Translations under genes and position numbers: made by a program | Notes under the pieces: model-generated | What the model saw: only the letters and a program-made list of their open reading frames with translations | What the model was told of the DNA's origin: nothing | Database searches by the model: none | DNA from: a virus | Lineage: Duplodnaviria; Heunggongvirae; Uroviricota; Caudoviricetes | IMG/VR virus record: IMGVR_UViG_3300044675_001501 | Span: 1 to 64,000 of that record | Direction: 5' to 3' (one strand) | DNA: 64,000 nt | Shown here: positions 21,361 through 64,000 of the stretch, piece by piece | How the letters are laid out: each line of letters starts with the position of its first letter | Numbering within the stretch: the stretch's first letter is position 1

Positions 21361-21921
21361 TTATTCCTCTGTTAACAAATCTATCACTTGTAGAAAATTC
21401 TCTTTATTTTCCCTCATATAATCCAACACTTCTTTTTGATCTTTCAATATATTATTTAGATATTCCTGTGTATGCAAATCGATAACTACTTTAGAGCCAT
21501 CAGCTAACACATAATCAATTTTATCTTCAAAAATGCAATCATGTTTGTTTAATTTTCTGATTGCTTGAACTGTTGAATCAACGGTAAAAACCTTAGAAGA
21601 GGCGAGATCAATATAATGTTCTAGTATATTATCTGTAACTTTTATATTGTGCTCTTCTTTTATTATTGACGCGATCTTATTTTCTAACACTTCTTCATAG
21701 ATATCTTTAGACACTTCTTGTTCGATATATTGTAACTTATTTTGTTGTCTAAGGTAAGATCTCGCCTCATCTAAGGTCTTGAACTCAGTTTCAACATTGC
21801 TAATAAAGACTTTACCTTCCTCTGTTAAATACAATGGAATGTTAAATGCAGAGCTCTGTTCTACAATTTTCTTCTGTAGAACAGAACCCTTTACTTTATT
21901 AGCGAATTGCTTAAAATACAT
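21361..21921 (-). CDS. hypothetical protein
   Basis: 186-aa ORF in the head-gene cluster. No motifs. Confidence 0.35.
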   Translation of the reverse strand: MYFKQFANKVKGSVLQKKIVEQSSAFNIPLYLTEEGKVFISNVETEFKTLDEARSYLRQQNKLQYIEQEVSKDIYEEVLENKIASIIKEEHNIKVTDNILEHYIDLASSKVFTVDSTVQAIRKLNKHDCIFEDKIDYVLADGSKVVIDLHTQEYLNNILKDQKEVLDYMRENKENFLQVIDLLTEE

Positions 21922-24474: not shown

Positions 24475-24482
24475 TATTTATC
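24475..24482 (-). promoter_or_regulatory. late promoter-like GATAAATA upstream of gp19
   Basis: NATAAATA form 30 nt upstream of the gp19 start. Confidence 0.4.
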
Positions 24483-26670
24483 CACCAATTTCATCAAAGT
24501 TTACAGCTGAACGAGCAGCTACAAAGGTTAGAGTAATGAAGTTGATAGAACGGTTTGGTTTGATAAAGATTTCAGCAACAAACTCGTTACGGTCAACGAC
24601 CTCAGCTGTATTGTTGGAATCGTCACACTTAACACGGAAATCTATAATACCACGACGACCTTGAACGTCACGTAGGAATGGTTCAACTAGATTACGGAAC
24701 TGAGCACGTGTAAAACTGTCGTTGAATTCAAACAACTGGAACTTCGCTGCAGTTGAAATAGATTTCTCAAGAGTAATGAATAGGCGACGAACGTTGATGC
24801 GATCAAATGCGCTTGGCTTAGATAGCATTGTCTTATCACCGAACAGAACAGTACCTTGTCCTGGGAATGTAACAACTGGATTAATACCTGCTTTGTAAAG
24901 AGTGTCACGCTCAGTCTTGCTTGGTGTAACAGCCAATTTAATAACATTCTTAACCTGACCACGAGTAAATCCACCTGGAGAGAACCATGGGTCAGCAGTA
25001 AAGTCAGTTCTTGCGCAAATACCAGCGATGTCACCGTTTAGTGGAACATAACGATACTTGTCGTTATAACGGTCATACTGATACTTGTAACCAGAATCAC
25101 AAACTGCGTAGCTGCTACTTGGTAGAGCATTGCGATATGCGATTAATTCATCAACATAATCTGCAGTTTGTTGTGTGATTGGATCGCCGTTACCCATTTG
25201 TGGAGAAACGAATACGATACAATCTTTTCTAAATTCTGCAACGTTGTTGATAACCCAAGTTGCAACAGCAGTAGAAGCTGCGCCTACTGGAATTAATGAG
25301 ATGTCATATAGTTCATCATTTTTAAAGATCTCATATCCAGCTTGTAGAGCTGCGTCAGATACGCTAAAGTCATCAACACCACCAGATAGTGTAGAAGTTT
25401 GAGCTGCTGTTAGTGCCTTAAATGCAGAACTTGTCATGTTTTCGATACGAACACCCCAAGCATTTCCTGTGTTAGCGATAGCAGTTGGGTGATCCATCCA
25501 CCACACATACTTAGATGATTGATTCATAACATCTCTGTAGTATGCGTTAGAACCATCAACACGCTTTGCGCCATCAGCTTTAGAAACGTAAGAATACTTT
25601 TCTAGAGTAGAACCAGCAACACCAGTCCATAGACCTAGAGAGTCGATAACGATAATATGAACTTCGTCTAATGCTGCGTTCTTGCCGTTATTAGTAGCCC
25701 ATGGCGATGTTCCTGGAGCAGTATCAAATTCTGCTTTATATGTCCAAGTATCGAATGTTGCGCTGTCGGCGATAGAAACTGTAATTGAGTTTCCTAGAGC
25801 ACCTGGGAATTTCGCAGCCCAGCTACCAACTAGACCTTGACCAGTTGAGTATGCTGCTAGATATTCTTCAGTGTTTTTAATTTTAACACCAGCTGTTGTA
25901 ACTGTTGCTGTTGCTGTTGCGCCAGTACCGTTACCACCAGTTACGTTTACTGTTGGTGCAGTGCTATAACCAGTACCTGCTGTTCCAACAGAGATAGAAG
26001 CAACTGCGAAACCAAGAGTTGCTGTTGCTGTTGCGATAGAAGTGATAGTGTCGCCAGCATCTGGAGTAATAACTACTGTTGGTGCGCTGGTATAACCAGA
26101 ACCACCTGCTGTTACGTTAATTGCAGTAACTGCGCCACCAGAAACAGTTGCTGTTGCAGTAGCACCTGTACCACCACCGCCAGTAAAGGTAATAGTAGGA
26201 GCAGTAGTATATCCTGCGCCACCACCTGATACTGCTATTGTCTTAACAGCACCTGCTGTTGCTAGAGTAGCAGTAGCAACTGCTTGAACGCCACCAGAAA
26301 TATCTGGTGCTGCGATAGCAACCACTGGTGCGCTAGTATAACCTGTTCCACCTGCACTAAGCGCTACTCCAACAGAACCAGTCTTAACAGCAACTGCGTT
26401 TCTTAGGTTTGGCGAATCAATACGGACGGTCAAAAGGTTGTTTGCGTATGATAAAAAGTTGGCAGCTACTAAAAATGACTGCCAGTTTGCATCTGTTGGT
26501 TTTCCAAAACGATCTGCTAGACTGTTTTCTGAGGAAACTTGAACTGGGTCAAGAACTGGACCCCACTGGAATGATCCAGCAAACGCTCCTGCAGAAGTAG
26601 AAACCGCTGGAACAATTGAAGAGAAATCTTTCTCTACAACTGAAACTCCTGGACTAAGTTGGAAAGGCAT
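24478..26670 (-). CDS. 18: tail sheath protein gp18 with inserted ~37-aa repeat module
   Basis: Located between gp19 and gp17. Conserved sheath N- and C-terminal regions. Residues ~95-250 carry 'GG.GYT.APT..F.GG.G.GA.ATA' repeats of the same type as in the 56084..59635 product. Confidence 0.8.
25920..26385 (-). repeat. repeat module inside the tail sheath gene homologous to the 56.6-58.9 kb repeats
   Basis: Encodes '[10 protein letters not shown]...[28 protein letters not shown]...[28 protein letters not shown]', which matches 'VVITADPGDTITNPATASAVIGYAVASI' in the 1183-aa protein. Confidence 0.6.
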
Positions 26671-26756: not shown

Positions 26757-28337
26757 TTAGAAGTTGTATATGGGTTTCTCCTCATCTGGAGTTCCGTCAT
26801 CGAAAAATCCAAATGGGGTTAGTTCATCTTCAATTGCCTTTAGTTGTTTCTCGTAAATTAATTTTCTCAAGTTTAGATTATTCAAGTCCTTAAAATAAGG
26901 GTTTGTTGATAACCAAGAAAAGAGAACCAGAGTCATAACTAAATCGTCATAGTACCCATCGTCAGCTGCAAAAGAATTCCTCTTTTCAATAAATGTAGAA
27001 AGTTCAGATATAATATCAGCGTCAGTAATAATGAGTTTTTTCTCCTCGATAAAACTCTTCAAAACTGAACAGCCGATTCGTTTGACTTTTTTGTCTGTTG
27101 TTACACCATATTTTGTTCTGCCGCCACCAAATCCACCGTTTACAGTTTGTCCTTGGTTGCCTCTATTAACGAACAACATATTCTCATACTCAAGTTCCCC
27201 ATACAGGATGTCAGCAACCTGTGGGTCTGAGTTAACCTCAATCAGAACATAAGCATTGTTGTATTGTTTCGCTATTTTCTCGATAATGTTTGGATACAAC
27301 AAGGGACTTACTTTGTTACTTCTATATTTAGCGTTTATGAAATACGGAGTTGTAGTAATGTCTATTACCGTAAATGCGCTGTAGTCGCCGTCAAGACCCT
27401 GTGAGGTGTCTGCTACAAGAACATAAGTGTGGTCTTTTTCTGGCTTATTAAAGATGTCAAGACCTTCGTTATTATAGATAGGTTTAATCGGCGACATCTG
27501 AGCGATGACATCAGCATTAATAAGAGTAAGAGAAGAACCAAGGAATTTACACAGAACCTCTTGGTTATATTTAAGGTCGCCAAGTTGACGACGCTGTTCT
27601 TCTGCCCATTTCGCATCTCTACCTGGAATTTCCCAATATGGAATAAACAATGGAACAAAGTCATTATACTTCTGTTCAGCATCGTTCCAGAATTTCCAGA
27701 AATGATTATATCCAAGTGGAGTTGATGTTATCAAAATCTTGGTTGACGTACCAGCAGAAATTGTAGGATATATAGAAGTGAAGAACTGTTCTGCAATTTG
27801 ATTAGGAATAATCGCAGCCTCGTCAATATACAACATGTTAACAGATTTAGAACGAATACCAGAAGCTGTAGTAGCTGCAGTAAAAACCTTTGAACCGTTC
27901 TCTAATTCAACGTCGCCCTTGTTCCATGTTTTAACACCTTGCTGCATCCACAGAGGTAAATTCTCGTACATTAATTGATAACGAGAAAGTATTTCTCTAG
28001 ATGTAGCAGCTTTGTTCGCTAGAATAGCGACATTCTTATTGTCATTAAAAATAGTATACCAAAGAATATAACCAGCAGCTGTAGTTGTTTTACCCTGCTG
28101 ACGACCTTCCATAATAATTACTTTACGATTGTCGTGAATCGTTCTTACTTTTTTCTTTTGACATTCGTATAATTTAAACTGTTGAAGACCATGATCGAGT
28201 GTAACAATATAACAGTAATTATCAATAAAGTAGACTGGGTCTTCTTTACATTTTAGATACTCTTTAATTGTTTCTTCTGTAAATTCTACAGGTACACCAA
28301 CAGCTTTTAAATTCGCATTAGCATTATAATTCTTCAT
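26757..28337 (-). CDS. 17: terminase large subunit gp17
   Basis: Walker A 'GRQQGKTT', Walker B 'MLYIDEAA' and a C-terminal nuclease domain. Confidence 0.9.
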   Translation of the reverse strand: MKNYNANANLKAVGVPVEFTEETIKEYLKCKEDPVYFIDNYCYIVTLDHGLQQFKLYECQKKKVRTIHDNRKVIIMEGRQQGKTTTAAGYILWYTIFNDNKNVAILANKAATSREILSRYQLMYENLPLWMQQGVKTWNKGDVELENGSKVFTAATTASGIRSKSVNMLYIDEAAIIPNQIAEQFFTSIYPTISAGTSTKILITSTPLGYNHFWKFWNDAEQKYNDFVPLFIPYWEIPGRDAKWAEEQRRQLGDLKYNQEVLCKFLGSSLTLINADVIAQMSPIKPIYNNEGLDIFNKPEKDHTYVLVADTSQGLDGDYSAFTVIDITTTPYFINAKYRSNKVSPLLYPNIIEKIAKQYNNAYVLIEVNSDPQVADILYGELEYENMLFVNRGNQGQTVNGGFGGGRTKYGVTTDKKVKRIGCSVLKSFIEEKKLIITDADIISELSTFIEKRNSFAADDGYYDDLVMTLVLFSWLSTNPYFKDLNNLNLRKLIYEKQLKAIEDELTPFGFFDDGTPDEEKPIYNF

Positions 28338-29086
28338 TATTCCCAGCCTTCAATTATCGCTGATCCAGGTGTTTCTTGTGTTGCTGAATATGTTGATGTT
28401 TCAATATCAAACTGATTAGTTTGAGAAATGCTTGCATTGATAGTTCTAATAATACCGTTCTTAGAAACAGGTCCAAACAAATTAAGTTTAAGAGTAAATG
28501 TCATAGTATAAGTAACAAATCTTCTTGTCTGAAAATCACCATCATAATCATCTTGAATACTTACGCTATTTAGAATAATTGGAATGTCCTGAACTACATT
28601 CATTTCTGGAACAACATTAAGAGATAGTGTAAACTCTGGTGTAAAATATGGAAGGATCTGCTCTACTATTTGCAAACAGTCTTCTTGGGTTTTAGCGATA
28701 GCATAAAGGGATATGTCAATATTATATGGAACAGGCGAGAACATTTGATCTCTGCCACCATTATCTTTAACGCAAACCAATTTATTCATTCTATTTACTT
28801 TTCTTGTTGCGTCATACGCAATATTAGTAACTTCGAATGAAAGTCTTGGTAGAGTTGTATAAACTTGATTTTCTAAAGTTGGATCTGAGTCAACACGAAC
28901 AATCCACTTTTCTTTAGGTGCGTAAGCAATAGGAACATCAACAGTTTGAATTGTGTCCCCAGTGTTTCCGTATTCGGCGCTATTCTCTTTTAACTTTCTT
29001 TCAATTTTAATGTTACTAAAAAGGCTACCGAAGGCTACGATAGTCTTTCTAATTACACCATGATAGAATGTTTGACCTTTTAACAT
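28337..29086 (-). CDS. 15: tail sheath stabiliser/completion protein gp15
   Basis: Similarity to T4 gp15 ('LFSNIKI', 'LQIVEQILPYFTPEF', 'GIIRT'). Confidence 0.8.
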   Translation of the reverse strand: MLKGQTFYHGVIRKTIVAFGSLFSNIKIERKLKENSAEYGNTGDTIQTVDVPIAYAPKEKWIVRVDSDPTLENQVYTTLPRLSFEVTNIAYDATRKVNRMNKLVCVKDNGGRDQMFSPVPYNIDISLYAIAKTQEDCLQIVEQILPYFTPEFTLSLNVVPEMNVVQDIPIILNSVSIQDDYDGDFQTRRFVTYTMTFTLKLNLFGPVSKNGIIRTINASISQTNQFDIETSTYSATQETPGSAIIEGWE

Positions 29087-29799
29087 TATACGATATCCCC
29101 AAACGGATTATCTTCATTAAAGATAATATCTCTCATTTCTTTTCTAAACTTCTCATTGTCTCCGAATGAAGTAACTTCATCTGTTCCGTAACCACCACCA
29201 AGCTGTTGACCATTTTCTGCAAGCATTAGATCGCCAGTTTCTAGTAGTAAACCATATTCTCCGTAAGACTTTAGTTCTTCGAAAACATCAATATCAGGGA
29301 TACCAGTTTGGATTGTCTCAGAAGCATACTGGAACAATTCAACTTGTAGTTTGTAAATATAGAGTTTGCCTAATTGAAAGAATGGATCTAGATGATCAAC
29401 ATACTTAATTTCAAACAAACCTTTTGTTAGTGGGAAATATAATAGGTCGCCTTCTGCTGGTCTAGCTGGGATAATCGTTTGACCGAATCTACCAATAAGC
29501 TGATCCCATCTACGTCTTGCTACTGTGAAGGTTGCGCTTGATTCATTAAACAAACCGAACTTTTGAATAAAAGAACCTTGACCACCGTAGTCAGTAACAT
29601 TCTCAAAATACATCTCAATTGGGTATGCATCTAAGAACTGGCTTAAACGATCTTCGCCTAAGATCTCATCTTTACCTACAAGTTTTCTTGGAATGTAAAA
29701 CATATCCTGTCCATAGATGGACAGGGACTCAACTATTAGGTCTTCAATAAGATACTGTTCGTTCTTTGTGCCATGACTAAAGTAGACATTTCTTGTCAT
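29086..29799 (-). CDS. 14: neck protein gp14-like
   Basis: Synteny between gp13 and gp15, and size. Confidence 0.55.
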   Translation of the reverse strand: MTRNVYFSHGTKNEQYLIEDLIVESLSIYGQDMFYIPRKLVGKDEILGEDRLSQFLDAYPIEMYFENVTDYGGQGSFIQKFGLFNESSATFTVARRRWDQLIGRFGQTIIPARPAEGDLLYFPLTKGLFEIKYVDHLDPFFQLGKLYIYKLQVELFQYASETIQTGIPDIDVFEELKSYGEYGLLLETGDLMLAENGQQLGGGYGTDEVTSFGDNEKFRKEMRDIIFNEDNPFGDIV

Positions 29800-29801
29800 T
29801 T

Positions 29802-30548
29802 TTATCCCATAAAGAATTCTAGCGGAGCAGCCTTAGTAATTAAGTCTTCTTCTAATTCCTTTATTTCTTCGACTGCTTCTTGATATAATTTATCGCCATC
29901 AATTACAACACCACCTGGTAATTGTAATCCTTGGAATTTCTTTAGGTTAGTTCCCCACTGTTTCTTAAACAATGCAGTTGTAAACTTCTTTAGCCAAGTT
30001 TCGTTTAACATTCTTGGGAATGTTGCTGGATCTAAAGCACGATAACACTCAACTAGAACATACTCACCAACATTAATATCACTTTCCCAGTTAATATCTA
30101 GGTGTAATCTATTTTGAAATCTATTAAAACGATAAAGAGTATGTCCATTTAGAACCATGTCAAGCAAAGCAAGATGTCCTCTTACCATTTCATAATAGAT
30201 TATAGATGTGCTTGTTAAGTCGTAAAGATCGTGAAGACGTAGTTGGTATTGCATATCAAACATATTACGACTAGAGCCAGAAGCGCCAGAACCACCTGTT
30301 GGGAAAACTCTAGTAATACCATAAACAATATCAGGGATTGGAATATATCTATTTGTCTTATCTGTTTCGGTAATCTGATGTTTTAAATAAAACTTTTCAG
30401 TACCTTCATGGTGATATACTCTAAACTTCTCGATAGCATCATCAATTCTGTCCTCTAGTTGATCGTCGTCTACGTTGATCTCGAGAACTGGTGCGCCCAG
30501 TTCTCTTAAGCAGTACTCTTTTAATTGTTCTCTAGTAGCAACAGCCAT
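29802..30548 (-). CDS. 13: neck protein gp13-like
   Basis: N-terminal similarity to T4 gp13 ('KEYCLRELGAPVLEINVDDDQLEDRIDDAIEKF'). Confidence 0.75.
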   Translation of the reverse strand: MAVATREQLKEYCLRELGAPVLEINVDDDQLEDRIDDAIEKFRVYHHEGTEKFYLKHQITETDKTNRYIPIPDIVYGITRVFPTGGSGASGSSRNMFDMQYQLRLHDLYDLTSTSIIYYEMVRGHLALLDMVLNGHTLYRFNRFQNRLHLDINWESDINVGEYVLVECYRALDPATFPRMLNETWLKKFTTALFKKQWGTNLKKFQGLQLPGGVVIDGDKLYQEAVEEIKELEEDLITKAAPLEFFMG

Positions 30549-30557
30549 TTTGTTTCC

Positions 30558-33500
30558 TTATGCTTGTGATTCAGTCCAAGACAGACGGCAAGAAGCAGCG
30601 AACGTAGCAGCAGCAGTAACGTCAGAAGCTAGACCAATGTATCTCATACGTAGAGTCAATACGTCTGGACCGTCAGGGAATACACCGTTACCGCCCATAA
30701 TAGAGTTACCAAGAGTTGCAATTTCACGTAGGTCAATAGAGGTCAATGCTTGAGCTCTGTTGTTTGGTGTTGTCAACTGGTTTCCAGGTGGAACACGGAA
30801 CGAGAAGATAACAGAACCTTGGTCAATTGTGTCAGAAATGTTATGGTAAACAACCTGACTCAATGAAGGAGCAGTAACACGCTTCCAATCCAAGTTATCC
30901 AAGTCAGCATTCAGAACCAGAGACAATTCAATCTCGTGGGTTGAAAGAACGTCAAGAGCTTTCAAGTTCAATTGCATGCGGTTAATAATTTCTCTTTCTC
31001 CAAGTAATCCTGGAATACCATTATCAACAGAAGGCGATAGACGTAAAGACAATAGAGGAATTGTTTTAGTCAAATCAACAGCCTGTGAAACTGTATATGT
31101 AGTATTTGTCGCTTGGATAGAAGAAGGTCTTGCGTTAACAACCAATAAGTTTTTAAGAATATTAGATGTTGGAGAAACTCTGACCTGACGCAAATATGGT
31201 TGACTACCGATAGATGAGTTGGTTGGGTTTGCAGTTAATGTACCAGCAACAATACCATTTCCTGATATACCAGAATTAGCATTAATAGAAAAATATGTAT
31301 CTGCATGAGTAGGAATTTCAATAGCAAAACCAATTTCACCAATCAGCTTACCGCCATTGTTATAAGCATACCATTTTCCTAGTTCGAATGCGTTACCAGC
31401 TGTAACTCCACCAGCTGCGGCAAGACTTGGTGCTACTGCGGTACAAACAAAACTTGTTCCAACGTTGTTGTTTGCTGCTCCATATGAAGTCCAAGTTGTT
31501 GATCCTGCCGTATTAATTGTATAAGAACGACCGATAACTAAATTGTTTGCTGTAAAGGTTTGAGATACTGATGCTTGTGTTCCACCAGTAACGCTAATTG
31601 TGCCAGAAGTACCAGTAGAAGTACGAATCTGGTTAGAAGTAGCGGAGAACAAGTATGCTTTATCGTCATCGAAACCACCGTCCATAATAACGGAAGTACC
31701 CCAGTGTGCAAGTTTAGGTATAAAGGAAGGAGAAACGCCAGTATCAACCTCATAGCGAGCTGGCAGGTTACCCGAACGTAGGTACGCTTCTGTTTCTAAG
31801 TTGTTGTGGACAATTTGGTGTACGTATCTAACAACACCATCAGTAGTTTTAAATCCAAAACGAACTTTACCAGCGCCATACCAAGAATAGTCCATGTAAG
31901 CCATCTGAATCTTACGAATATCTAAAGTATATCCTGTTGGACCACTTCCATTACATACATCTAAATTCCAGCTTGATTGTGGAACTCTAATCTCATTAGT
32001 CTTACTTACTACAACATTAGTTGATGTAGAACCTCTATATGATGGTTGAACATAGAACGTATTGTTGTTTGGAATTTCAATAACTTTATATGATTGTCCT
32101 TTAATTACAACATAATCTCCAGAGACTAATTCTGTTACGTATTGTGTTCCTGTTCCTACAATTTGATTGCTGTTAAAAATAACACTTGCAGTTCCACCTA
32201 GCTGAACTGTAGAATTTCTTCTGCATACGCTAAGAGTCGAACCATTATATTCAAAGAACATACCATTTTGATCATCAAATAAACCACAACGAACTGTTGC
32301 GTTATTCCAAGAATTTACGTAGAATTGTGGGCGACCGCTGGAAACGTTGCTATATGGGAAATTCAAACTAATTCTAAATGAATAATCATCTATAATGTCA
32401 TAAATTGTGAACGATCCATTATAGGTAGATCCAGTATCCCCAGAAATAGTAATGTCTAGACCAGCAGTACATCTGTGAGGAACACGAGTAGTTACTGTTG
32501 CATAGTAGTTACTATTACCTGTAACTGAGTTAATAGGTACTGAAGGGCTGAAGTTAATAGCAAACGAAACTTGAATGCCTTTACCTGACTGATAACGGAA
32601 ATACTTACGAGTCTGACGAACAACACGTGCGTTCGGAGAATCTGTTGAGATTAATTCAACACCACCGTCATATGGTCTATGTAACGCTGATGAGTCAGCA
32701 CGCAACAATAGACTAGAAGTAACATCATAGGTGTTTGTTGCTGGGAATCCGTGACAGTTTATTGCGTTTACAGTAGAAGCTGTTGTTGTTGCTGGGATAG
32801 TTGCAGTCGCAGCAGCATTAGTTTGCATAGTAACAACAATAGAAGTGCTATTGCTACCAGCATTAGTTTTGACAATTAATGGAATATTGTCAATCTGAGT
32901 TGTATTACCAGTTCCTGTTAAAACAATGACAGAGCCAGCAGGGAATGGGCAAGGCATTGGGAAAGCGACAGTAATATCTGGGCTGGCGCTTGTTAGTGAT
33001 ATAGAAGTTACTGGCAATTTATATTGTTCATTAATTGGGATAGTATCAACTAAGTTTAACACAGTGCGTGAGTTGACTGTGCTAATTAGAGAAACACCAG
33101 TATTTCCAGGAACAATTAAAGAAACAGTGTGAACACCTGAACCACCAGAAGCAACGATCAAGTTAGTCCCATTTACTGCATCATTATAGGTAGGAGCTAA
33201 GTTGAAGTCGGCAGCTGACGCCCATCTTACATAGTAGATACCACCGTTAATTAGACCAGTTGGTGCAGCAACAGTAGAGTTCCAGCGTACAGACATGCCT
33301 GTCAACATACCGTGCGCAGCACTAGTAAATGTTGAAGAAACGAAAGTTGTTGTTTTTGCAGTGTAAACTGCTGGGTAATTCCAATAGAAGTTATCGCCAG
33401 ATTTAAACGCAGTTGAGAAGTTTGTGTTATTACCAACTACCTTAGTTGTTCCTGCTGCTAGTGCAATAGTACCAGCACCAACAATAGAACCAACAACAGA

Positions 33501-36500
33501 AGCTGCTTCAAATTGATGCGTTCCAGAACCCAAGAAGTTTCCGCTGTTTAAGTTAATTGGAACAACAATAGGATTAACAGCATCTGCTACTGTCGCAGCA
33601 AGTCTGAACCAATCTTCTGTTATTTTAATAATGTAGTATGTTGTATTACTAATTAATGGACCGAATGGTGTTCCTGATGCTGTATATAATACAGGAGTTC
33701 CTGTAATCAATTTGTGTCCGACGCTATAAATCGCATTCCAGTTAAAGTCGACATTAATCTGAGGATTAATACCTAGAACACGTTTAGGAACAACAGCATT
33801 GTTAGGATTATTAAGGGTAAATTTATTTGTTGCGCCACCAGGAGCATTATTTGCGACAGTATACAACCCATCAATGGCTCCAGTAGTAACCCCAGTAGTC
33901 ATTGTGTGGGATGCGCCAGTTCCTTCTGCTGTTATATCAACAACAGTTGATTGACGTAAAGAACCAGTTCCAGAAGGAGTTCCAACAAACTTCACACGAT
34001 CATCTGCGGTATTGTTAATCGCACCAAGTTGAGTCCAGTACAATGTACATGTCGTAGTAGAATCTGCACGAACGTAGTAGAACGCACCATTGGTTAGTCC
34101 TGTAGCTGGTGTTGCTGACAAATATTGAACTAGACGACCAGTAGTAAACCCATGAGTTCCAGTTGTAATAACACCAGTCGCAGTCGCTAAGTTGGTAGTA
34201 TTCTGCGTAAATGAAATCGCAGCAGTATCCCAACCTGTTAACGTATCAGCTAACTGGAATCTATCGGTAGTAGAATTGAAAACGAATTTAGTTGATCCGC
34301 TTGTTAGTCCTCCAACTTCAGAGCCACCACCTGTTGCGTATGTTACAGAGGTTCCATTGTTTAATCCATGATTTTGTTTATAGATGGTGTCGCCAGCGGT
34401 ATTCGATGCTCTTCTTGTGAAGTAATGATTATTTCCAACAAAAGATAGTTTTGCGCCGAGGAAATAAATTCTACCAACATCTGTGCCATTATTATATGCA
34501 GCAAAAGCAGAAGTGTTTAGAGGCTCAGTAGCTTCAGCATCTTTGTAAATTTCTAGTGTTGTAGATGTTGCTGATTTAGCATAATATATCTTATGATCCC
34601 ATAGAGCATACCAAGGAGAAGCTGGTGCAGCAAAACCTTGGAAGTGAATAGGAACAACTGCGCCAACAGGGACGCTGTGCGCTGCAGTCGTAGCAACCGC
34701 AGTAGAGTTACTGGTGAATGCAGTAATCGCAAGGATCTGAGGGTTCAATGCTGGAATTAGCTGAGAAGCAGTACCGTTTGTTGACACTGCTCCATTGGTT
34801 CCACTATTAGCATATGTGAACGTATTAAATGTAGCTTGTAAAATTACTGCAGTTGCATTGTTAAAGGTTGTGTCAGTAACAGAAGCAATAGCAACTTGTG
34901 TTCCAATTTTGAAACCATGAGGAACAGCAGTAGTAACTGTAGCTACGTTATTATCTCTACGAATAGAAGCAATATTTACGCTGTTCGATGGGAATGTATA
35001 TGTTATTGAATTTGTCTCACCAACAGTAATCGCTGTAATAGATCCTCGTTTTAGTGTAGTAGAAGGAATCTTTGTGATTTCAAAGTAATCAGTAATTTGT
35101 GAGCCAACAAGAGGGAAATATGAGTTATCTTTAGGGTGAGCCCAAACACTCTGCAACCAGCTTGTTCCAATAGCAAGGTTATCTTCATCGCGAACTCCAT
35201 GTCCTGTATCAATAACAACCTTCGCAGTAGATATTGTAGAGAATGTTCCTGGAAGACCTCCTGGAGTCATAACATAAACAATAACACTTAGTGCTGGCGC
35301 AGTTCCTGATACGGCTCCAACTCTAATATCATAAGCATTGAAACGAGAATCTCCGATATATGTTAACTCCGCAGTGCCATCAGAAACCGCACCACTTGTG
35401 TGAGAAGGCGCTGATGTGCTGGTTGTTCCAGCAACAGAAACATTGTATAAATTATTATTCCAGAAAACTTTTTGGTTTAGTGTTAACGCAGTATTTGGAC
35501 CCCATGGTGTACCCATTTTTAGTGGTTGGTTATTTGCGTCAAAGAACTTGATTAAACCGCCATGGTGTGCAACGTTGGCTAAAGCGCTACCTCCTGCGAT
35601 ACGTGCTGCTGAAGTAAACGTGAATGTATTAGCACCAGCAGTAATAGTTGGAACTACAATGTTTGCTGTAGTTGACCATGCAGAAGATGGATACGAAATC
35701 GTCATCGATGTTCCACCAGAAGCCACAGCTGCAGTTTTCCAATTCCAATATGCGGTGTCAAATGTTGTGTTAACATTTGTTAGTGTCTTATCTGCAAATG
35801 CGTTAGCTGTATCTAAATGCGCACCAGCAGCGCTTGTTACTGCCAGAGCAGATCCAGCATCAGAAAGAAGTTTAAATCTATCTGTGGTTGCAGAGTCAAC
35901 AATAAAGTATGATCTATTTGTTAAACCAGTAGGAACAGAAGCTGCGGCTTGGGTTCCACCTGATGCCTCCCAGAAAACCAATTCTCCGTTTTGGAATCCG
36001 TGAGACTTAGAATACCAAGATCTACCAGTAGACCATGGTTGTGTATAGTTAATAGGAACAACATATCCATCAACAGAAGTGCCACTAAGAGTTAAATTAG
36101 ATCCACTAACAGTTGTTGACAAATTGAATGTTAGAATATCTGAACTTGCTGAACCATAGAGATCAAAACCAACATTATTGGTTTGAACTGCAAGAGAATT
36201 GTTTAATGGATTTTTAAGTTTAATTGTTAAAGTTCTAGTTGTTGTTCCTGTGTGGTTGGTTATCATACCAACTGGATTTACTGTAGAACCTGGGAATTCA
36301 CCAAAAGGGCTAACCTCATATGATTGATACAATCCAGTATTATTTCTTAAAACAATCTGGTGTCCTTTCGGAGTATTTCTTAGAGGAGTTCCTGTGAACA
36401 GTGCGCCAGCGTTTGATGCGGTAGCAAGAGTGAATGTTGCACCACCTTGCGTAGAGCTTAAAGTGATATCTGCGCTACTTTCGATAGTTTTAACATAATA

Positions 36501-39935: not shown

Positions 39936-41622
39936 TTCCACCACGAACCTTAAACACATTATAGCGAATAACGATTCTATCATCTGGATTTGGCGCTTCT
40001 GTAAAAATTAAAGTGCTACCAGAAGTGTAGTACGAATAAGAAGATCCTGGTGTTTGAGGAACGCCACCAACAGTAACAAATATCTCGTCTTCAGCCATCG
40101 CAGCAGCTAATGCGTATGAGGTTGTAGTTCCGTCACCAGTGTATATAGTTCTACTATATTTAGGCGTAAATTCTAACGCAGAACCAGAAGAATTTAATAG
40201 TGGAGTTGCCGCACTTAATCTTAAAGATGTTGCGTTAATCGTTCCAACAACATCTAATGGAAAAACTGCTGTAGTGTTTAAAGTTCTTGGTGTGCTGGCT
40301 GTTCCACTAGAAGTACCATTTACTGGGCTTAGAGCAACTGACAGATAATAATAAAAACCAGAAACTTGTCCATACGCACCACCAGAGGCATTAGCTGTTG
40401 CTAGAGAGTTTGTTCTAGCGGTAGTAAATGTTGAGCTATGAGTTCTTGTGTTAGCTGAAGGTACAGTCTCAACCAGAAACCATGATGTGCTAAATGAAGT
40501 TTTTCTATAAACTTTATATGATGTTGCGCCAGTAACAGCACTCCATGTTACTGTTGCTGTGTGGCTAGTTGGTGATGCGCCAGCGGAATAAAAGCGAGAT
40601 GAGGTTGCGGTTCCTATGGTTTCTCCGTATGCATTAACTGCTGTAACTGCAAAGGAGACCAAAATTGCTCCAGTAGAATTAAGAGAAGAACCAGTTGCAT
40701 ATGTTATAGATGTTTCGCTTAATGATGTAACTGCGCTACTACCAGTAATATGTAAATTACCACCTCTAATACCACCTGCAACTTTTAATGCACCAGCAGA
40801 AGATGTTGAAGGTGTTGTGCTACCTAGAGTTATGTCTCCAGTTGGACCATCAATACTAAATTTTGTTGTTAAAATATCTACATCAACCAAAGTGCCAGTT
40901 GTTTCGCTAACAAGAAGAGGGTATAATGTTCCAGTTGCGTTTGTGGTGTCAGTAATAGCAATAGCATCTGAAGACTGAACCCACTGAACTCCTGTCCCTG
41001 TTGATTTAAGAACATAATTATTAGTTCCAGCGCTACCACCAGCAGTAATTGTTCCAGTTAGGATTAAATTGTTTATTGTTTTACCACTTAGACTTTGCGT
41101 GGAGTCAGTGTCTACAATTGTTTTTCTACCAGTAGCGGTGCCGATGGTTAGAATATTATCATCTGTATCCCAGAAGATAGAACCTTCCGCAGTTTGCGCA
41201 GCGGAAGCACCTTGAGGTAAAACAAGAGAACCTGCTGCTGCATCAATTGTTGGGTTGTTGATTGTTGGGGATGTTAAAGTTTTGTTTGTTAAAGTTTGTG
41301 TATGATCTTTAAAAACAAATTCATCGTTACCAGATAATATTGGTAACGTAATTGTTCTTGTTCCATCCAACTCTCCGACTGCAAACTGGTAAAAATGATC
41401 ACCAGTAGTATCCCCGATCTTAGGGAGAGTCAATACTTTGTTGGATAAAGTTTGCGATGTGTTTGTTCCGACTAAGGTAGTTGTTACCTGTGGAAGAGTA
41501 AGAATCTTGTCACTGTCAACAATAATCCCATTACCTGTTAGGTCTAGATTATCGCCAGAGGCAAGTTCTTCAATTGTGTTGGTTTGTCCAGATTTAACTA
41601 TTAGAGGAAAACGATTTGCCAT
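39931..41622 (-). CDS. tail-fibre-like protein with FN3-like domain (563 aa)
   Basis: Fibrous composition. FN3-like 'TVTWSAVTGATSYKVYR'. N-terminus 'MANRF..' related to the neighbouring fibre genes. Confidence 0.6.
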   Translation of the reverse strand: MANRFPLIVKSGQTNTIEELASGDNLDLTGNGIIVDSDKILTLPQVTTTLVGTNTSQTLSNKVLTLPKIGDTTGDHFYQFAVGELDGTRTITLPILSGNDEFVFKDHTQTLTNKTLTSPTINNPTIDAAAGSLVLPQGASAAQTAEGSIFWDTDDNILTIGTATGRKTIVDTDSTQSLSGKTINNLILTGTITAGGSAGTNNYVLKSTGTGVQWVQSSDAIAITDTTNATGTLYPLLVSETTGTLVDVDILTTKFSIDGPTGDITLGSTTPSTSSAGALKVAGGIRGGNLHITGSSAVTSLSETSITYATGSSLNSTGAILVSFAVTAVNAYGETIGTATSSRFYSAGASPTSHTATVTWSAVTGATSYKVYRKTSFSTSWFLVETVPSANTRTHSSTFTTARTNSLATANASGGAYGQVSGFYYYLSVALSPVNGTSSGTASTPRTLNTTAVFPLDVVGTINATSLRLSAATPLLNSSGSALEFTPKYSRTIYTGDGTTTSYALAAAMAEDEIFVTVGGVPQTPGSSYSYYTSGSTLIFTEAPNPDDRIVIRYNVFKVRGGT

Positions 41623-59958: not shown

Positions 59959-59964
59959 GTTTAA

Positions 59965-60183: not shown

Positions 60184-60434
60184 TATTCTTTCCTATCTAT
60201 TAGAATTTGTAACATTTGTTTGATACTATCAACATCATTCTTAAGATTATTTATTTCACAATTTAAAGAAGAAATTGAAGTAGACATAGCTTGTTTTTCT
60301 AACTCATTTCTTCTAGAGATAGACATCATTTTCTTATGTTCAAGATACCTTTTCGTATCAATGTTGACGACCGACCCAGTTCTTAAATCTTTAACTAGGT
60401 CGGGTCTTTTGTCAATCTTAGCAAGTTTTTCCAT
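60183..60434 (-). CDS. small coiled-coil protein (83 aa)
   Basis: Heptad-like 'LNCEINNLKNDVDSIKQMLQILI'. Overlaps both neighbours. Confidence 0.4.
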   Translation of the reverse strand: MEKLAKIDKRPDLVKDLRTGSVVNIDTKRYLEHKKMMSISRRNELEKQAMSTSISSLNCEINNLKNDVDSIKQMLQILIDRKE

Positions 60435-63400
60435 TATGAGTGAGCGATTAATCTTAGTTTCTTAATACGAGGAACTTTACTTGGATCAGTTGACTTCATA
60501 ACAATCTTAATGATTGCATTAGTAAACGGAGTAATGTCAATAACATCAATTGTTTGTTCACTAAACACATCTAATGCGTCATTAGATGCAGTAGTAAAAC
60601 CTGTATCAACATAATTTAGGGTGTTTGGATCCACACCAGTTGTCCAAGTCTTATAGTAAATTCTCAGATCAGTAAACTGCGGAATGTTACTGTCAAACAA
60701 GATCTTCAACGAATCTGCTGGGTTAGAAATAACCAGAGGACGTGTAATATAGTTTGCATAGTTTGATGTTCCAGTAGGAGCCCAATCTTCAACAAACTTA
60801 TCTAGCTGATCAATCTTCCAACTTGGGGTATTCTTTCTGATATAATATTCAGTTGAAGAAGTAATAGAAGATGTTGGGTTTGCTGTTAGAGTAATAGATG
60901 TATCACTATTAACAATAGAGACTGTTCCGATAGTAATACCTGTCTCACCATCTGTTCTTCCGTTTCCACCAAAACTTTGTTCAGTCAGAACATCACCAAC
61001 TGCAACTTCTGTTAGGAATGCGCTACCAGATCCAGTAACTGCAGTTGCTGCGCTACTTGTTGCTGTAATAAATCCTGCACCTTTGAAGTATAGATAATCA
61101 TTCACCATATCAATTGTTGCAGATGTTACGCCTGATGGGAAAGTAAACGCTGGAGAAACTGTAATTGTAATAACATCGTCTTCAGCGTTACCAACATTAA
61201 CAGTAGTATCGCTTGATGTTACAACAGTTTCAACTAGATACTTTCCGTTAATACCAGCGATCATACCAGACAAGTAGATATACTTACCTTGTTTAGCAAG
61301 AGATAACAGGTTATCAGCAGTATCAATATTAGTAGAAATAATACCCTTACCACCAGAGTTAGAGAATGTTAGTTTAGCTTCTGGAGTACCAATAGTAAAT
61401 GTTGTAGCTGGGTCAGTTGAAACAGTAACAGTAGATGCTGTTGCTAATGACTCTAATTCAAGCAAAGTATTGCCAAGAGTATAACCATTATCAGTTCCAG
61501 AAACTTGAGCTACCTTACCAATTAGTTGATTCTGTGTATTATACAATAATGTTCCAACTGGAGTTTCAGTAGTAAACTGGGTTCCGATACCAAACACATA
61601 TTTACTTCTAACAACAAATTGGTCTCCAGCATTAGTAGTTGGAGATGTTGTGTTAATTTTTATAGATCCTGGATTAACTTCCGTAATAGCTCCAATTAAA
61701 ACTGGAGTTGCAGCAGTTGTATAAATCTCATCACCAACTCTTAGTCGTTTCCATGGTGCACCAGTTTGTGAAGTTCCAGAACCATCAAACAAGTAAGTAG
61801 TTCCAGTAATAGTATATGTTCTAGTTCCTCCTGATGTAGTTGCAGCAGGTAGTGTTAGATTTGCGCCAAACAAATTGGTATAGTGGAACGCACCAATTGT
61901 TCCTGTCGCTGGTTCTGCATCAATATCAGCAGCTGTTACATCGTTCGCTTTTAGTAGAGGTCTGTTGTCAACACCAATAACATTAATGTCTGCTTCAGTT
62001 GGGCTATTAATCAGATTTCTAATAGCGAACACTGATAATCTACCCATATCGATAATAGGTGAGACGTTGGCATTAGATGAAGACAACTTAGCTCTTATTG
62101 AAACAGATGGACGTACCAATCCTGTTGCTGCAGAGAGAACGTCTTCGTTCTCATACGATCTAATAATCTTTCTTGAATTAAATGTAAAGTTTGTATTTTC
62201 AGTTAAAGACTGGTATCCACTAGGAGTTCCGTCAGTATCGATAGCTTGAACTTCAAATTTTAATTCAGTATCTGTAGGAACAACGTTGTCGCCCTTTAAG
62301 AATAGGTAATCAACAATTAGTTGTCTTGAGCACTTAATTCCTGTGCCACCATAATCACCTTTGACGAATTGATCTAGAATTTGCTGAACAGTTGTTTCTG
62401 TTCCAGCTTCCCCAGTGATTAGAATGTTTGGCTCAGACTCACCTGTTTGTGGATTAATATATTCATCTTCAGTTTGTAATCTAAAGCAGAATGAATCTTG
62501 ATCAACACCTTCTTGAAGTACAATCTGACCACCGTTTAGTAAACTTGCTGGAATACCAAAAGACTGCGACTTAGTTCCGTAATATCTTGTTTCTTCGAGA
62601 GTGTCAGCAATAAATTCTGCAACTCCCTCAATCATTACAACGTCGCCAGCACTAAATCCGTGGCGTGGTGCTCTAACTCTAATAATATCTGATCCTGGAG
62701 TAACCTCAAATGGATTAGCAGGAAGATTCATTAGTTTAGGTGGTAATGCTTTTAACTCAACCTGAGCTGTTTGACCAATATCAAACTCTGCCTGATACAT
62801 TCTAAACTTCATATCGAACAGAGGATTAATCTCAAACTCTTTACTGTTTTGCGACAAGTATAGAGATCCAGTTAGAGGTTGGTTTGTAACTACGTTACCT
62901 GTTAAAATGTCGCTCTTACCAAGCTCTGAAATGAAAACTTGACATCCTGGCTCGTCAGTCTTAACGATTAGAGCATAGTTCTCATTATCGACCAAGTAGA
63001 TTGGAGATCTAAACTTAAAGTTTGTTGCAACGCTACCATCATCGGAAACTGCTATCTCTGCTGGATTCTTAGTTACTTCAGAGAATGGCAGAATCTTAGA
63101 AGATGGGACGCCATTATCGGTGGTTCTAATCTCAACTGTAACAGGACGATTACCTGCTTCAGAGAAATATAGATCAACAGAAGTGATAAACATTCCACCA
63201 AAAGATTGAACAACGAATGTTTGTGCTAATGGATCGTGACCACGTCTTGGTCGAATAACCTGCAGGACACGTTGAGATGTTGAAACTCGGCGAACTGGAA
63301 TTGATTCGAATACACGATCTCGTACAAAGTTTGCTTGACGACTATTGACAATAGTTCGTTCGCGAGAAAGCGTAACTCCCACAGAGGAATAAGTAGCCTC

Positions 63401-64000
63401 ACCTATAGAATCAAAGTCAGCGCTGCTATTTGAAATATTATCTGTTATCTTAAATGAACGCTCACCAGTTCTAAATCTAATTGTATCGCTACTTGGGAGA
63501 TTAAAGACTCCAGCGCAAGATCCAGTAGTATCGGTTCTAATAGCATCACCAATTTTCTTCATTACTGGCAATGTTCCAGCAGTCGAGTTTCCATTGATTG
63601 CTGTTACAGTTACTTGGTTTCTAGCAGAGTTTGCGAATACAAGAGTACCAGTTAAGTTCTCGCCAATAGAGAAACCATTTTTAATGTTAGTTACATAAAT
63701 TTCTTGTGTTACTGGTCCAAGAGCATCAGTAGCAGAAGCGACACCAGCAAATACTACAACACCAGTAGCTTGTAATCTTCTAATGTAACCACCATCAGCG
63801 CCAGCGTAAGCAGCAGCTCTATCGTATGTGCTGAACTGTCTAATTCTTGAACCGTCTAATGACGTTAGAGTAATTGTTGTTCCGCTAATCGCTGCAATTT
63901 TAAATACTCTATTATTGATTTCTCTAGAAGTTCCAACATTATAAGTTCTAATTGTTGTCTGATTATTGATACGCTCAGTAACAGTTCTTGTAATGTTTAG
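60434..64000 (-). CDS. large structural (baseplate/fibre-associated) protein, 5' end outside window
   Basis: The 1045-aa track ORF starts at a TTG. The same frame stays open with no stop up to position 64000, so the true N-terminus lies beyond the window. Confidence 0.55.
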   Translation of the reverse strand, partial: LNITRTVTERINNQTTIRTYNVGTSREINNRVFKIAAISGTTITLTSLDGSRIRQFSTYDRAAAYAGADGGYIRRLQATGVVVFAGVASATDALGPVTQEIYVTNIKNGFSIGENLTGTLVFANSARNQVTVTAINGNSTAGTLPVMKKIGDAIRTDTTGSCAGVFNLPSSDTIRFRTGERSFKITDNISNSSADFDSIGEATYSSVGVTLSRERTIVNSRQANFVRDRVFESIPVRRVSTSQRVLQVIRPRRGHDPLAQTFVVQSFGGMFITSVDLYFSEAGNRPVTVEIRTTDNGVPSSKILPFSEVTKNPAEIAVSDDGSVATNFKFRSPIYLVDNENYALIVKTDEPGCQVFISELGKSDILTGNVVTNQPLTGSLYLSQNSKEFEINPLFDMKFRMYQAEFDIGQTAQVELKALPPKLMNLPANPFEVTPGSDIIRVRAPRHGFSAGDVVMIEGVAEFIADTLEETRYYGTKSQSFGIPASLLNGGQIVLQEGVDQDSFCFRLQTEDEYINPQTGESEPNILITGEAGTETTVQQILDQFVKGDYGGTGIKCSRQLIVDYLFLKGDNVVPTDTELKFEVQAIDTDGTPSGYQSLTENTNFTFNSRKIIRSYENEDVLSAATGLVRPSVSIRAKLSSSNANVSPIIDMGRLSVFAIRNLINSPTEADINVIGVDNRPLLKANDVTAADIDAEPATGTIGAFHYTNLFGANLTLPAATTSGGTRTYTITGTTYLFDGSGTSQTGAPWKRLRVGDEIYTTAATPVLIGAITEVNPGSIKINTTSPTTNAGDQFVVRSKYVFGIGTQFTTETPVGTLLYNTQNQLIGKVAQVSGTDNGYTLGNTLLELESLATASTVTVSTDPATTFTIGTPEAKLTFSNSGGKGIISTNIDTADNLLSLAKQGKYIYLSGMIAGINGKYLVETVVTSSDTTVNVGNAEDDVITITVSPAFTFPSGVTSATIDMVNDYLYFKGAGFITATSSAATAVTGSGSAFLTEVAVGDVLTEQSFGGNGRTDGETGITIGTVSIVNSDTSITLTANPTSSITSSTEYYIRKNTPSWKIDQLDKFVEDWAPTGTSNYANYITRPLVISNPADSLKILFDSNIPQFTDLRIYYKTWTTGVDPNTLNYVDTGFTTASNDALDVFSEQTIDVIDITPFTNAIIKIVMKSTDPSKVPRIKKLRLIAHS

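What the first reader, a model, noticed from the sequence alone, without database searches (positions are those of the whole stretch)
26757..29086. No small-terminase gene at the canonical gp15-gp16-gp17 position
The gp15-like gene ends and the terminase large-subunit gene begins within the same tetranucleotide, so the two genes overlap at 28337. There is no room for a gp16 homolog, which in T4 and its cyanophage relatives sits between gp15 and gp17. None of the small ORFs in the window resembles gp16. Either the small terminase is encoded elsewhere or packaging initiation differs.
Basis: partly seen in the sequence, partly recalled or inferred. Interest (0 to 1): 0.55.

Follow-up and report, generated by a model that had tools for sequence, protein, structure and literature searches.

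The report
Small terminase gene moved, not lost
This freshwater T4-like phage does lack the small-terminase gene (gp16) at its usual place between gp15 and the large terminase, but its close relatives keep an ordinary gp16 about 55 kb away among baseplate genes, so this is a gene-order change and not a new way of packaging DNA.

Summary
gp15 (28337-29086, minus strand) and the 526-aa large terminase (26757-28337) share one base in TAATG. Nothing in the 64-kb window resembles gp16 by HMM, Pfam or PHROGs. The same gp15|gp17 abutment occurs in 55 of the 80 closest IMG/VR relatives (TerL 69-93% identical). Twelve sister contigs, and cultured relatives such as pelagiphage Mosig and cyanophages, keep gp15-gp16-gp17.

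The gene has moved rather than vanished. Every relative whose baseplate region I could read carries a full-length PF11053 (T4 gp16 family) gene of 136-138 aa. It sits between a tail-tube-like gene and gp26, in a gp4-gp2-tube-like-gp16-gp26-gp51 cluster on the opposite strand, about 30-56 kb from TerL. Two contigs show both features directly: NCBI JBJKNJ010002287.1 (167 kb, 82-88% DNA identity to the window) and JGI Ga0485291_000034 (126 kb). Two more are tied to the same pattern through exact-protein contig records.

The window's own 169,497-bp source contig could not be read. Presence there, predicted about 20 kb beyond the window's right end, is inferred from relatives on either side of the window in the TerL tree.

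Verdict: an ordinary TerS/TerL system with an undescribed synteny variant. Low interest.

The parts
29802..30548 (-). gp13-like neck / head-tail adaptor gene (248 aa)
   Evidence: PHROG 211 head-tail adaptor, E=4e-42. The equivalent 248-aa gene on the 167-kb relative carries PF26809 Phage_T4_gp13.
29086..29799 (-). gp14-like neck protein gene (237 aa)
   Evidence: Pfam T4_neck-protein, E=7e-30; PHROG 460/679.
28337..29086 (-). gp15-like tail sheath stabiliser gene (249 aa). Its stop codon TAA occupies 28337-28339.
   Evidence: Pfam T4-gp15_tss, E=2.3e-70; PHROG 227, E=4.5e-76.
28335..28339 (-). TAATG junction. The gp15 stop and the gp17 start share base 28337. This is the slot where gp16 sits in T4, cyanophages and pelagiphage Mosig.
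   Evidence: Read directly from the sequence. The same TAATG is present in relatives L016 and L613. Gene calls on ENA contig L004 show the same one-base overlap.
26757..28337 (-). Large terminase gp17 / TerL (526 aa), T4 type, with no N-terminal extension
   Evidence: Pfam Terminase_6N E=1e-18 and Terminase_6C E=7e-11; PHROG 2. 51-53% identical to cyanophage and Melnitz TerL over residues 4-519.
24478..26670 (-). gp18 tail sheath gene, immediately downstream of TerL (the rest of the synteny is canonical)
   Evidence: Pfam Phage_sheath_1 / 1C / Gp18_domIII_N.
60434..64000 (-). C-terminal part of a 2563-aa DUF4815 structural protein that runs off the right end of the window. The relocated gp16 is predicted about 20 kb beyond this end, at a window-equivalent coordinate of about 84,300-84,700, on the opposite (+) strand.
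   Evidence: L585 and L005 are 100% identical to window 58174-64000 and 57300-64000 and continue through gp8, gp7 and gp6. In scaffold_47 the PF11053 gene lies 14.7 kb beyond the gp8 start.

Best explanation
The small-terminase gene gp16 has been moved out of its canonical gp15-gp16-gp17 slot in this lineage of uncultured freshwater T4-like (Kyanoviridae-like) myophages. The excision was clean and left gp15 and gp17 sharing one base in TAATG, an arrangement that suggests translational coupling.

The gene now sits between a tail-tube-like gene (gp54-like) and the baseplate-hub gene gp26. It is part of a gp4-gp2-tube-like-gp16-gp26-gp51 cluster transcribed away from the gp53-gp27-gp5 baseplate genes, on the strand opposite to TerL and about 30-56 kb from it.

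The relocated protein is a full-length, ordinary member of the T4 gp16 family (PF11053). Packaging is therefore expected to work as in T4, which is an inference. In T4, gp16 rings recruit and regulate the gp17 ATPase/nuclease on concatemeric DNA to start headful packaging.

Shown:
- gp16 is absent from the window and from the canonical slot.
- The relocated gene is present with a conserved context in five lineages, four of them tied to TerL/gp15 data that bracket the window.
- Two contigs were read at both places and carry both the abutting gp15|gp17 and the relocated gene.

Inferred:
- The window's own genome carries the gene about 20 kb beyond the window's right end.
- The gene is expressed late and acts as TerS.
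For: (1) On ENA scaffold_47 (134,869 bp) the gene L592 2551-2967 is 138 aa with a precomputed PF11053 hit, and it matches my gp16 HMM at E=4e-40 over its full length.

(2) The same gene in the same context (TnsA-like/gp4, gp2, Phage_TTP_2, PF11053, gp26 T4_baseplate, gp51) is found on:
- JGI Ga0485291_000034, 126,495 bp
- NCBI JBJKNJ010002287.1, 167,213 bp
- JGI Lake-series contigs of 97,859, 102,628 and 123,300 bp
- NCBI JACCDW010160380.1

(3) Two contigs were read at both places:
- JBJKNJ010002287.1 has gp13-gp14-gp15-TerL with a one-base overlap at contig position 135,938 and no PF11053 gene nearby (L613). Its PF11053 gene is at 81,084-81,497 on the other strand (L597). L613 is 82-88% identical to the window in DNA, and its TerL is in the same 90% cluster as the window's.
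- Ga0485291_000034 matches IMGVR_UViG_3300046779_000230 in metagenome ID and length. It has gp15 abutting gp17 (L067) and the PF11053 gene at 109,684-110,100.

(4) Exact-protein look-up puts the TerL of L016 (93% identical to the window's TerL, same TAATG junction) on a 123,300-bp contig, the same length as the contig that carries the relocated gene. It also puts a cluster-mate TerL on a 134,869-bp contig, the length of scaffold_47.

(5) In the TerL tree the window clusters tightly with L016 and L613, both of which have the relocated gene.

(6) The best GenBank matches of the relocated protein are annotated cyanophage gp16/TerS proteins such as S-PM2 gp16, at 42-46% identity.

(7) In cultured cyanophages S-TIM4 and S-SRM01 the ORF just upstream of gp26 (annotated 'tail tube' in S-SRM01, 'unknown' in S-TIM4) is followed directly by gp26 with no gp16 between them, which marks the insertion point.

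(8) The relocated-type proteins sampled group together in a gp16 tree, next to the canonical freshwater gp16 proteins. This is consistent with one relocation that was then inherited vertically.
Against: The remainder of the window's own source contig (169,497 bp by exact-protein look-up) could not be read, so presence of the gene in this exact genome is inferred and not seen.

The relocated protein has changed two of the most conserved gp16 motifs: RAYEVVGQ has become RAFEVVGN, and FVGSTAEL has become FVGTTADL. It is only 31-40% identical to gp16 proteins at the canonical position.

Function as TerS is untested. Expression timing is untested, and no T4-type TATAAATA late promoter was found in the relocated cluster.

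The backbone of the TerL neighbour-joining tree is unresolved, so a single relocation event is not proven.
Confidence: 0.9

Rival explanations
1. True loss of TerS: this phage has no small terminase at all, and the large terminase starts packaging on its own or with an unrelated factor.
For: No gp16-like ORF in the 64-kb window. None within +/-10 kb of TerL in 68 relatives. None along about 97 kb downstream of TerL, read on contig B to about +77 kb and continued on close relatives. TerL is about 17 aa shorter than in relatives with canonical gene order.
Against: A full-length PF11053 gene is present in every relative whose gp2-gp26 region could be read. That includes two contigs shown to have the same gp15|gp17 abutment and two lineages that cluster tightly with the window in the TerL tree. 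The family has 2,099 database members at E<=1e-5, and the best 120 are all full length (135-144 aa), which argues for purifying selection.
Confidence: 0.03
2. The PF11053 gene in the baseplate cluster is a paralogue with a new role, for example in baseplate or head completion. The real TerS would be a different, unrecognised protein.
For: Its neighbours are baseplate-hub and head-completion genes (gp4, gp2, gp26, gp51). Conserved motifs are altered. Several small conserved ORFs in the window have no annotation, for example 6947-7324, 12746-13069 and 21361-21921.
Against: It is the only PF11053 gene found in these genomes, and no second copy remains at the canonical site. It aligns over nearly the whole length of the gp16 HMM (positions 6-133 of 135) with the same size. 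The relocated-type proteins sampled form one group next to the canonical freshwater gp16 proteins rather than a deep paralogue branch. The unannotated ORFs between gp20 and gp21 have counterparts with similar sequence features in relatives with canonical gene order, where they look like prohead-core genes.
Confidence: 0.05
3. Assembly or gene-calling artefact: gp16 was dropped by a misassembly at the gp15/gp17 junction.
For: The window comes from metagenomic assembly.
Against: Independent assemblies from ENA, JGI and NCBI share the junction, and it is the majority state among 80 IMG/VR relatives that differ by up to about 30% in TerL.
Confidence: 0.01

Closest known systems
T4 gp16 / PF11053 'DNA_Packaging' small terminase, as annotated in cyanophages (S-PM2 gp16, S-CREM1, S-H38), pelagiphage Mosig and Methylophilales phage Melnitz
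   Same: The relocated gene of this lineage is the same protein family. It has a precomputed PF11053 hit, E=4e-40 to a Kyanoviridae-type gp16 HMM, the same length (136-138 aa), and the same layout of N-terminal region, central helical 'SEHPRA(F/Y)EVVG' core and C-terminal 'FVG(S/T)T..L' motif.
   Different: Genomic position. In these known phages gp16 follows gp15 directly: Mosig, S-CREM1, and 78 of 80 IMG/VR gp16 loci. Here it sits between a tail-tube-like gene and gp26, on the opposite strand, 30-56 kb from TerL. Identity to gp16 proteins at the canonical position is only 31-46%, and two hallmark motifs are substituted.
Cyanophage hypervariable region between gp16 and gp17 (Millard et al. 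2009, as cited in Sullivan et al. 2010, PMC3037559), and Melnitz, where TerS lies 2 kb upstream of TerL
   Same: These are precedents for gp16 and gp17 not being adjacent in T4-like phages. In them gp16 and gp17 are separated by inserted genes.
   Different: In those phages gp16 stays on the same strand, in the same late operon region, and next to gp15 (Melnitz was not checked for gp15). Here gp16 left the neck-terminase block altogether and gp15 became overlapped with gp17.
Cyanophage gp4 - tail-tube-like - gp26 - gp51 baseplate/head-completion cluster (S-TIM4, S-SRM01)
   Same: Same cluster, same gene order, and the same divergent orientation relative to gp48/gp53 (searches compared with 59, 63, 64).
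   Different: The cultured phages have no gene between the ORF upstream of gp26 and gp26. In the window's lineage gp16 is inserted exactly there.

Membership tests
T4 gp16 small terminase (Pfam PF11053), tested on the window itself | An ORF matching the gp16 / PF11053 profile | tested here: not met
   Six-frame phmmer and hmmsearch gave a best E of 0.7-3. Pfam and PHROGs scans of 30 small ORFs gave no small-terminase hit.
T4 gp16 small terminase (Pfam PF11053), tested on the relocated gene of close relatives | Significant full-length match to the family profile | tested here: met
   Precomputed PF11053 hits for L592 2551-2967, L593, L597, L600 and L605. My own HMM gives E=4e-40 over HMM positions 6-133 of 135. 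The best GenBank hits are annotated TerS/gp16 proteins.
T4 gp16 small terminase (Pfam PF11053), tested on the relocated gene of close relatives | Gene located between gp15 and gp17 (canonical T4-like synteny) | tested here: not met
   The gene lies between a Phage_TTP_2 gene and gp26, 54.4 kb from TerL on the other strand in JBJKNJ010002287.1, and about 30 kb away in Ga0485291_000034.
T4 gp16 small terminase (Pfam PF11053), tested on the relocated gene of close relatives | Forms oligomeric rings, binds or stimulates the gp17 ATPase, and is needed to start packaging in vivo | not testable with these tools
   This needs biochemistry or genetics. No structure prediction was run.
T4-type large terminase gp17 | N-terminal ATPase domain (Terminase_6N) plus C-terminal RNaseH-like nuclease domain (Terminase_6C) | tested here: met
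   Pfam E=1.2e-18 and 6.9e-11; 51-53% identity to cyanophage gp17 over 98% of its length.
T4-like (Kyanoviridae-like) structural module | Gene order gp13-gp14-gp15-gp16-gp17-gp18-gp19-gp20-...-gp21-gp22-gp23 | tested here: inconclusive
   All members are present in order except gp16. The module is canonical apart from that one deletion.

The most novel reading that the evidence does not exclude
The window's own genome, whose other ~105 kb could not be read, might lack even the relocated gp16 and package DNA without a gp16-family TerS. A milder version is that moving gp16 into the gp4-gp2-gp26-gp51 cluster reflects a real change in how TerS is regulated or in its ratio to TerL, linked to the shorter TerL C-terminus in this clade.
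Probability: 0.04. Interest if true: 0.65.

Novelty: new member of a known kind. Interest (0 to 1): 0.2.

Why it matters
This matters mainly for annotation and classification. A large and abundant clade of uncultured freshwater T4-like phages would be wrongly scored as lacking a small terminase if annotators look only next to TerL or gp15. 55 of the 80 nearest IMG/VR contigs show the gp15|gp17 abutment, and 2,099 proteins match the relocated gp16 at E<=1e-5. The altered motifs RAFEVVGN and FVGTTADL also defeat motif-based searches built on cyanophage gp16. The gp15|gp17 TAATG junction together with gp16 between the tail-tube-like gene and gp26 is a clean synteny marker for this clade. The result does not change the understanding of the packaging mechanism.

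Tried and rejected
- Looked for the source genome in GenBank phages. The best TerL match is 53% identical, so there is no close cultured relative.
- Tested whether the genes inserted at the gp14/gp15/gp17 junctions of some relatives (about 915 nt to 6.3 kb) are alternative TerS genes. They are fibre-like structural proteins with an MAKQxINxGTxxNDGTGDxLR N-terminus.
- Tested whether the three small ORFs between gp20 and gp21 (109, 186 and 135 aa) could replace TerS. phmmer finds them only in relatives that lack gp16 near TerL. Relatives with canonical gene order have counterparts there with similar sequence features (a gp67-like acidic protein, a charged helical protein, a small beta-rich protein), so these look like prohead-core genes.
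- An IMG/VR scan with a gp16 alignment gave 80 loci, all with gp15 directly upstream or gp17 directly downstream.
- A protein search with the gp16 alignment listed only the 120 best of more than 8,000 hits, all near the query.
- Walked contig B (IMGVR_UViG_3300046779_000879, 163,642 bp) and close relatives from TerL to about 97 kb downstream: replication, nucleotide-metabolism, membrane-protein and tRNA regions. No gp16 was found.
- Scanned 10 kb upstream of gp8 in 80 loci. This stopped just short of the gp2-gp26 cluster.
- Tried to tie the relocated gene to the window's exact strain by overlapping contigs. L585 extends the window by 10.7 kb at 100% identity but ends inside gp6. L605 and L610 (relatives with 94-100% identical 263-aa protein) end at PAAR/gp25, so there is no overlap. 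The 169,497-bp contig is on record but its DNA was not retrievable.
- Literature search for T4-like phages without gp16 found nothing specific.
- A search for the T4 late promoter TATAAATA in the relocated cluster found none.
Full report
**What is in the window**

All genes in and around 26757-29086 lie on the minus strand. Their order is gp13-like (29802-30548), gp14 (29086-29799), gp15 (28337-29086), TerL/gp17 (26757-28337), gp18 (24478-26670), gp19 and gp20, followed by three small ORFs, gp21, gp22 and gp23.

Pfam and PHROGs identify these genes clearly: T4-gp15_tss at E=2e-70, T4_neck-protein, Terminase_6N and Terminase_6C, sheath and tube. The gp15 stop TAA and the TerL ATG share base 28337, so the motif is TAATG with a one-base overlap.

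TerL is 526 aa. It aligns to cyanophage gp17 from residue 4, so it has no N-terminal extension.

**Is gp16 anywhere in the window?**

It is not. I took gp16 sequences from cyanophage S-CREM1, Methylophilales phage Melnitz, pelagiphage Mosig and twelve IMG/VR relatives and searched the six-frame translation of the window:
- phmmer: best E about 0.7.
- A 15-sequence HMM: no window hit at E<=10.
- An expanded HMM including the relocated type found later: best E 3.1.

PHROGs and Pfam scans of 30 small ORFs gave no small-terminase family.

**Is it an artefact or a one-off?**

It is neither. The closest GenBank phages are only 51-53% identical in TerL, but IMG/VR holds many relatives at 69-93%. Among the best 80:
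- 55 have gp15 abutting gp17 (stop-to-stop ORF offsets of -63 to +12 nt) and no gp16 within +/-10 kb.
- 12 carry a cyanophage-like gp16 just upstream of gp17. In the 10 of these whose locus reaches gp15, the order is gp15-gp16-gp17.
- 5 have other genes between gp15 and gp17: a 915-nt insert in four and 6.3 kb in one. These encode fibre-like proteins.
- 8 loci do not reach gp15.

L016 and L613 read the identical TAATG junction, and gene calls on ENA contig L004 show the same one-base overlap.

Among 80 IMG/VR gp16 loci found with a gp16 alignment, 78 have gp15 directly upstream. In the other two, gp16 directly precedes gp17. Mosig, which has the best gp15 match to the window, also has the canonical order.

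**Where is the gene?**

The window's source contig could not be fetched, so I walked relatives.

Downstream of TerL I followed contig B (IMGVR_UViG_3300046779_000879, 163,642 bp, which has gp15 abutting gp17) and its close relatives. The walk ran through gp43, UvsX, gp41, ligase-like genes, primase, ThyX, NrdA/B, membrane proteins, RNase H, dCMP deaminase and tRNAs, to about 97 kb from TerL. No gp16 was found.

Upstream of TerL, the 10 kb before gp8 (gp27-gp5-PAAR-gp25-gp6-gp7) also lacked it in 80 loci.

The break came from the protein collection. The gp8 of the window's strain belongs to a 90% cluster with members on long contigs. L585, which carries this gp8, is 100% identical to window 58174-64000. 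One cluster member lies on ENA scaffold_47 (134,869 bp).

One further step upstream on that scaffold revealed a 138-aa gene with a precomputed PF11053 (DNA_Packaging, the T4 gp16 family) hit. It is on the strand opposite to the baseplate genes. Its neighbours are a 59-aa TnsA-like ORF, gp2, a tail-tube-like gene (Phage_TTP_2), then the PF11053 gene, gp26 (T4_baseplate), gp51 and a 720-aa protein. The whole cluster is transcribed away from gp53-gp27-gp5.

My gp16 HMM matches this protein at E=4e-40 over its full length. Two hallmark motifs are substituted: RAFEVVGN for RAYEVVGQ, and FVGTTADL for FVGSTAEL. This explains why the motif-seeded IMG/VR scan missed these genes.

**How general is it, and is it in the same genomes?**

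A search with this protein returned 2,099 homologues at E<=1e-5. The best 120 are 135-144 aa and 61-100% identical, and all carry PF11053.

Context look-ups show the same cluster (gp4-like, gp2, tube-like, gp16, gp26, gp51) on:
- JGI Ga0485291_000034, 126,495 bp
- NCBI JBJKNJ010002287.1, 167,213 bp
- three JGI contigs of 97,859, 102,628 and 123,300 bp
- NCBI JACCDW010160380.1

Two contigs were read at both places:
- Ga0485291_000034 has the same metagenome ID and length as IMGVR_UViG_3300046779_000230. There gp15 abuts gp17 (L067). The PF11053 gene is at 109,684-110,100, about 30 kb from TerL.
- JBJKNJ010002287.1 has gp13 (248 aa), gp14 (237), gp15 (249) and TerL (526) with a one-base overlap at contig position 135,938. 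These gene sizes are identical to the window's (L613). Its PF11053 gene is at 81,084-81,497 on the other strand, 54.4 kb away (L597). L613 is 82-88% identical to the window in DNA.

Exact-protein look-up adds two more links:
- The TerL of L016 (93% identical to the window's) is on record with a longest contig of 123,300 bp, the same length as the contig that carries the relocated gene.
- A cluster-mate TerL is on a 134,869-bp contig, the length of scaffold_47.

The same look-up places the window's own TerL and gp15 on a 169,497-bp contig, which is presumably the source.

In a neighbour-joining TerL tree the window clusters tightly with L016 and L613. By this bracketing the window's genome should carry the gene about 20 kb beyond its right end, at a window-equivalent coordinate of about 84,300-84,700 on the + strand. 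This last step is inference, because the DNA of that contig could not be retrieved.

**What kind of event was it?**

In cultured cyanophages S-TIM4 and S-SRM01 the ORF just upstream of gp26 is followed directly by gp26, with no gene between them. That ORF is annotated 'tail tube' in S-SRM01 and 'unknown' in S-TIM4. The freshwater lineage therefore gained gp16 at that point and lost it cleanly from the gp15/gp17 slot.

The best GenBank matches of the relocated protein are annotated gp16/TerS proteins of cyanophages such as S-PM2 gp16, at 42-46% identity. In a gp16 tree the relocated-type proteins sampled form one group next to the canonical freshwater gp16 proteins. Context was verified for five of these proteins. 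This is consistent with a single move that was then inherited vertically. The backbone of the TerL tree is unresolved, so this is not proven.

**How it most likely works**

Nothing suggests an altered mechanism. The phage has a standard T4-type TerL and portal. Its lineage has a full-length gp16-family protein that appears to be under selection. The expected mechanism is the T4 one: gp16 oligomers recruit and regulate the gp17 ATPase/nuclease on concatemers, followed by headful packaging. This rests on established T4 biology and was not tested here.

The changes are in gene organisation. gp17 now shares its start with the gp15 stop, which suggests translational coupling to gp15. gp16 sits within a tightly packed run of same-strand genes for baseplate hub and head completion, which suggests co-expression with them. 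Neither point was tested. No TATAAATA late promoter was found in that cluster, and cyanophage-type late promoters were not searched for.

**Comparison with known systems, and novelty**

Separation of gp16 from gp17 by a hypervariable insert is known in cyanophages (PMC3037559), and Melnitz has TerS 2 kb upstream of TerL. I did not find a described case of a move of 30-56 kb to the opposite strand into the gp26 cluster. That search covered the GenBank phage collection and one literature query.

The protein is an ordinary family member. Only its address is new. I rate this a new member of a known kind with an undescribed synteny variant, of low interest. It is useful as an annotation caveat and as a marker for this clade.

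**Rival readings**

- True absence of TerS in this genome: about 3%. It survives only because the source contig is unread.
- A PF11053 paralogue with a new role plus an unknown real TerS: about 5%.
- Assembly artefact: about 1%.

Noticed in passing
window 60434-64000 (minus strand): The '1045-aa ORF' listed at 60434-63571 is only the C-terminal part of a 2563-aa DUF4815 giant structural protein that runs off the right end of the window. There is no stop codon in that frame up to 64000. The window also encodes 3113-aa (30558-39899) and 3464-aa (45419-55813) proteins.
   Followed up: partly
L029, L034, L052, L053 (gp15/gp17 junction); L065, L027, L072, L078, L093, L095 (gp14/gp15 junction); window 41622-41924: Relatives repeatedly acquire extra fibre-like genes with a conserved N-terminus MAKQxINxGTxxNDGTGDxLR at the neck-gene junctions. 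A 100-aa window ORF carries the same N-terminal module. The neck region appears to be a hot spot for inserted fibre or whisker genes.
   Followed up: partly
window 26757-28337, compared with L044 9992-11620 and L051 9995-11632: TerL in relatives without gp16 next to TerL (the two read at both places have the relocated copy) is 525-530 aa. TerL of freshwater relatives that keep gp15-gp16-gp17 is 542-545 aa. Most of the difference is a longer C-terminal tail. Whether this is linked to the TerS relocation is unknown.
   Followed up: no
L044 13589-14797 and 16562-18010; L051 13693-14793 and 16541-17659: The relatives with canonical gene order carry two adjacent gp19-like tail-tube paralogues and a collagen-like (G-x-y repeat) gene right after the portal gene. 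The window has a single gp19 and no collagen-like gene there.
   Followed up: no
window 24478-26670 (gp18): Residues ~90-260 of the tail sheath protein contain a block of repeats of the type GG(T/S)GYTSAP. These match PHROGs of fibre, baseplate-wedge and virion structural proteins, which suggests an inserted surface-exposed repeat domain.
   Followed up: no
window 17824 and 20287 (minus strand): The T4 late-promoter octamer TATAAATA occurs only twice on the coding strand of the window, upstream of the gp3-like 178-aa gene and upstream of gp22. It occurs only once, far from the gp16 cluster, in the five relocated-gp16 loci checked.
   Followed up: partly
window 663-1028 and 14813-15286: Two unannotated ORFs (121 and 157 aa) both hit PHROG 527. 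The 157-aa ORF also hits the Pfam Sm_like family weakly (E=0.045), and the 121-aa ORF hits DUF6561 weakly. They may be a pair of related small paralogues of unknown function in the replication module.
   Followed up: no
L507 about 12600-14600 (relative of contig B): A stretch without convincing ORFs follows the peroxiredoxin gene, about 95 kb downstream of TerL. It is probably a tRNA cluster but was not scanned with ARAGORN.
   Followed up: no
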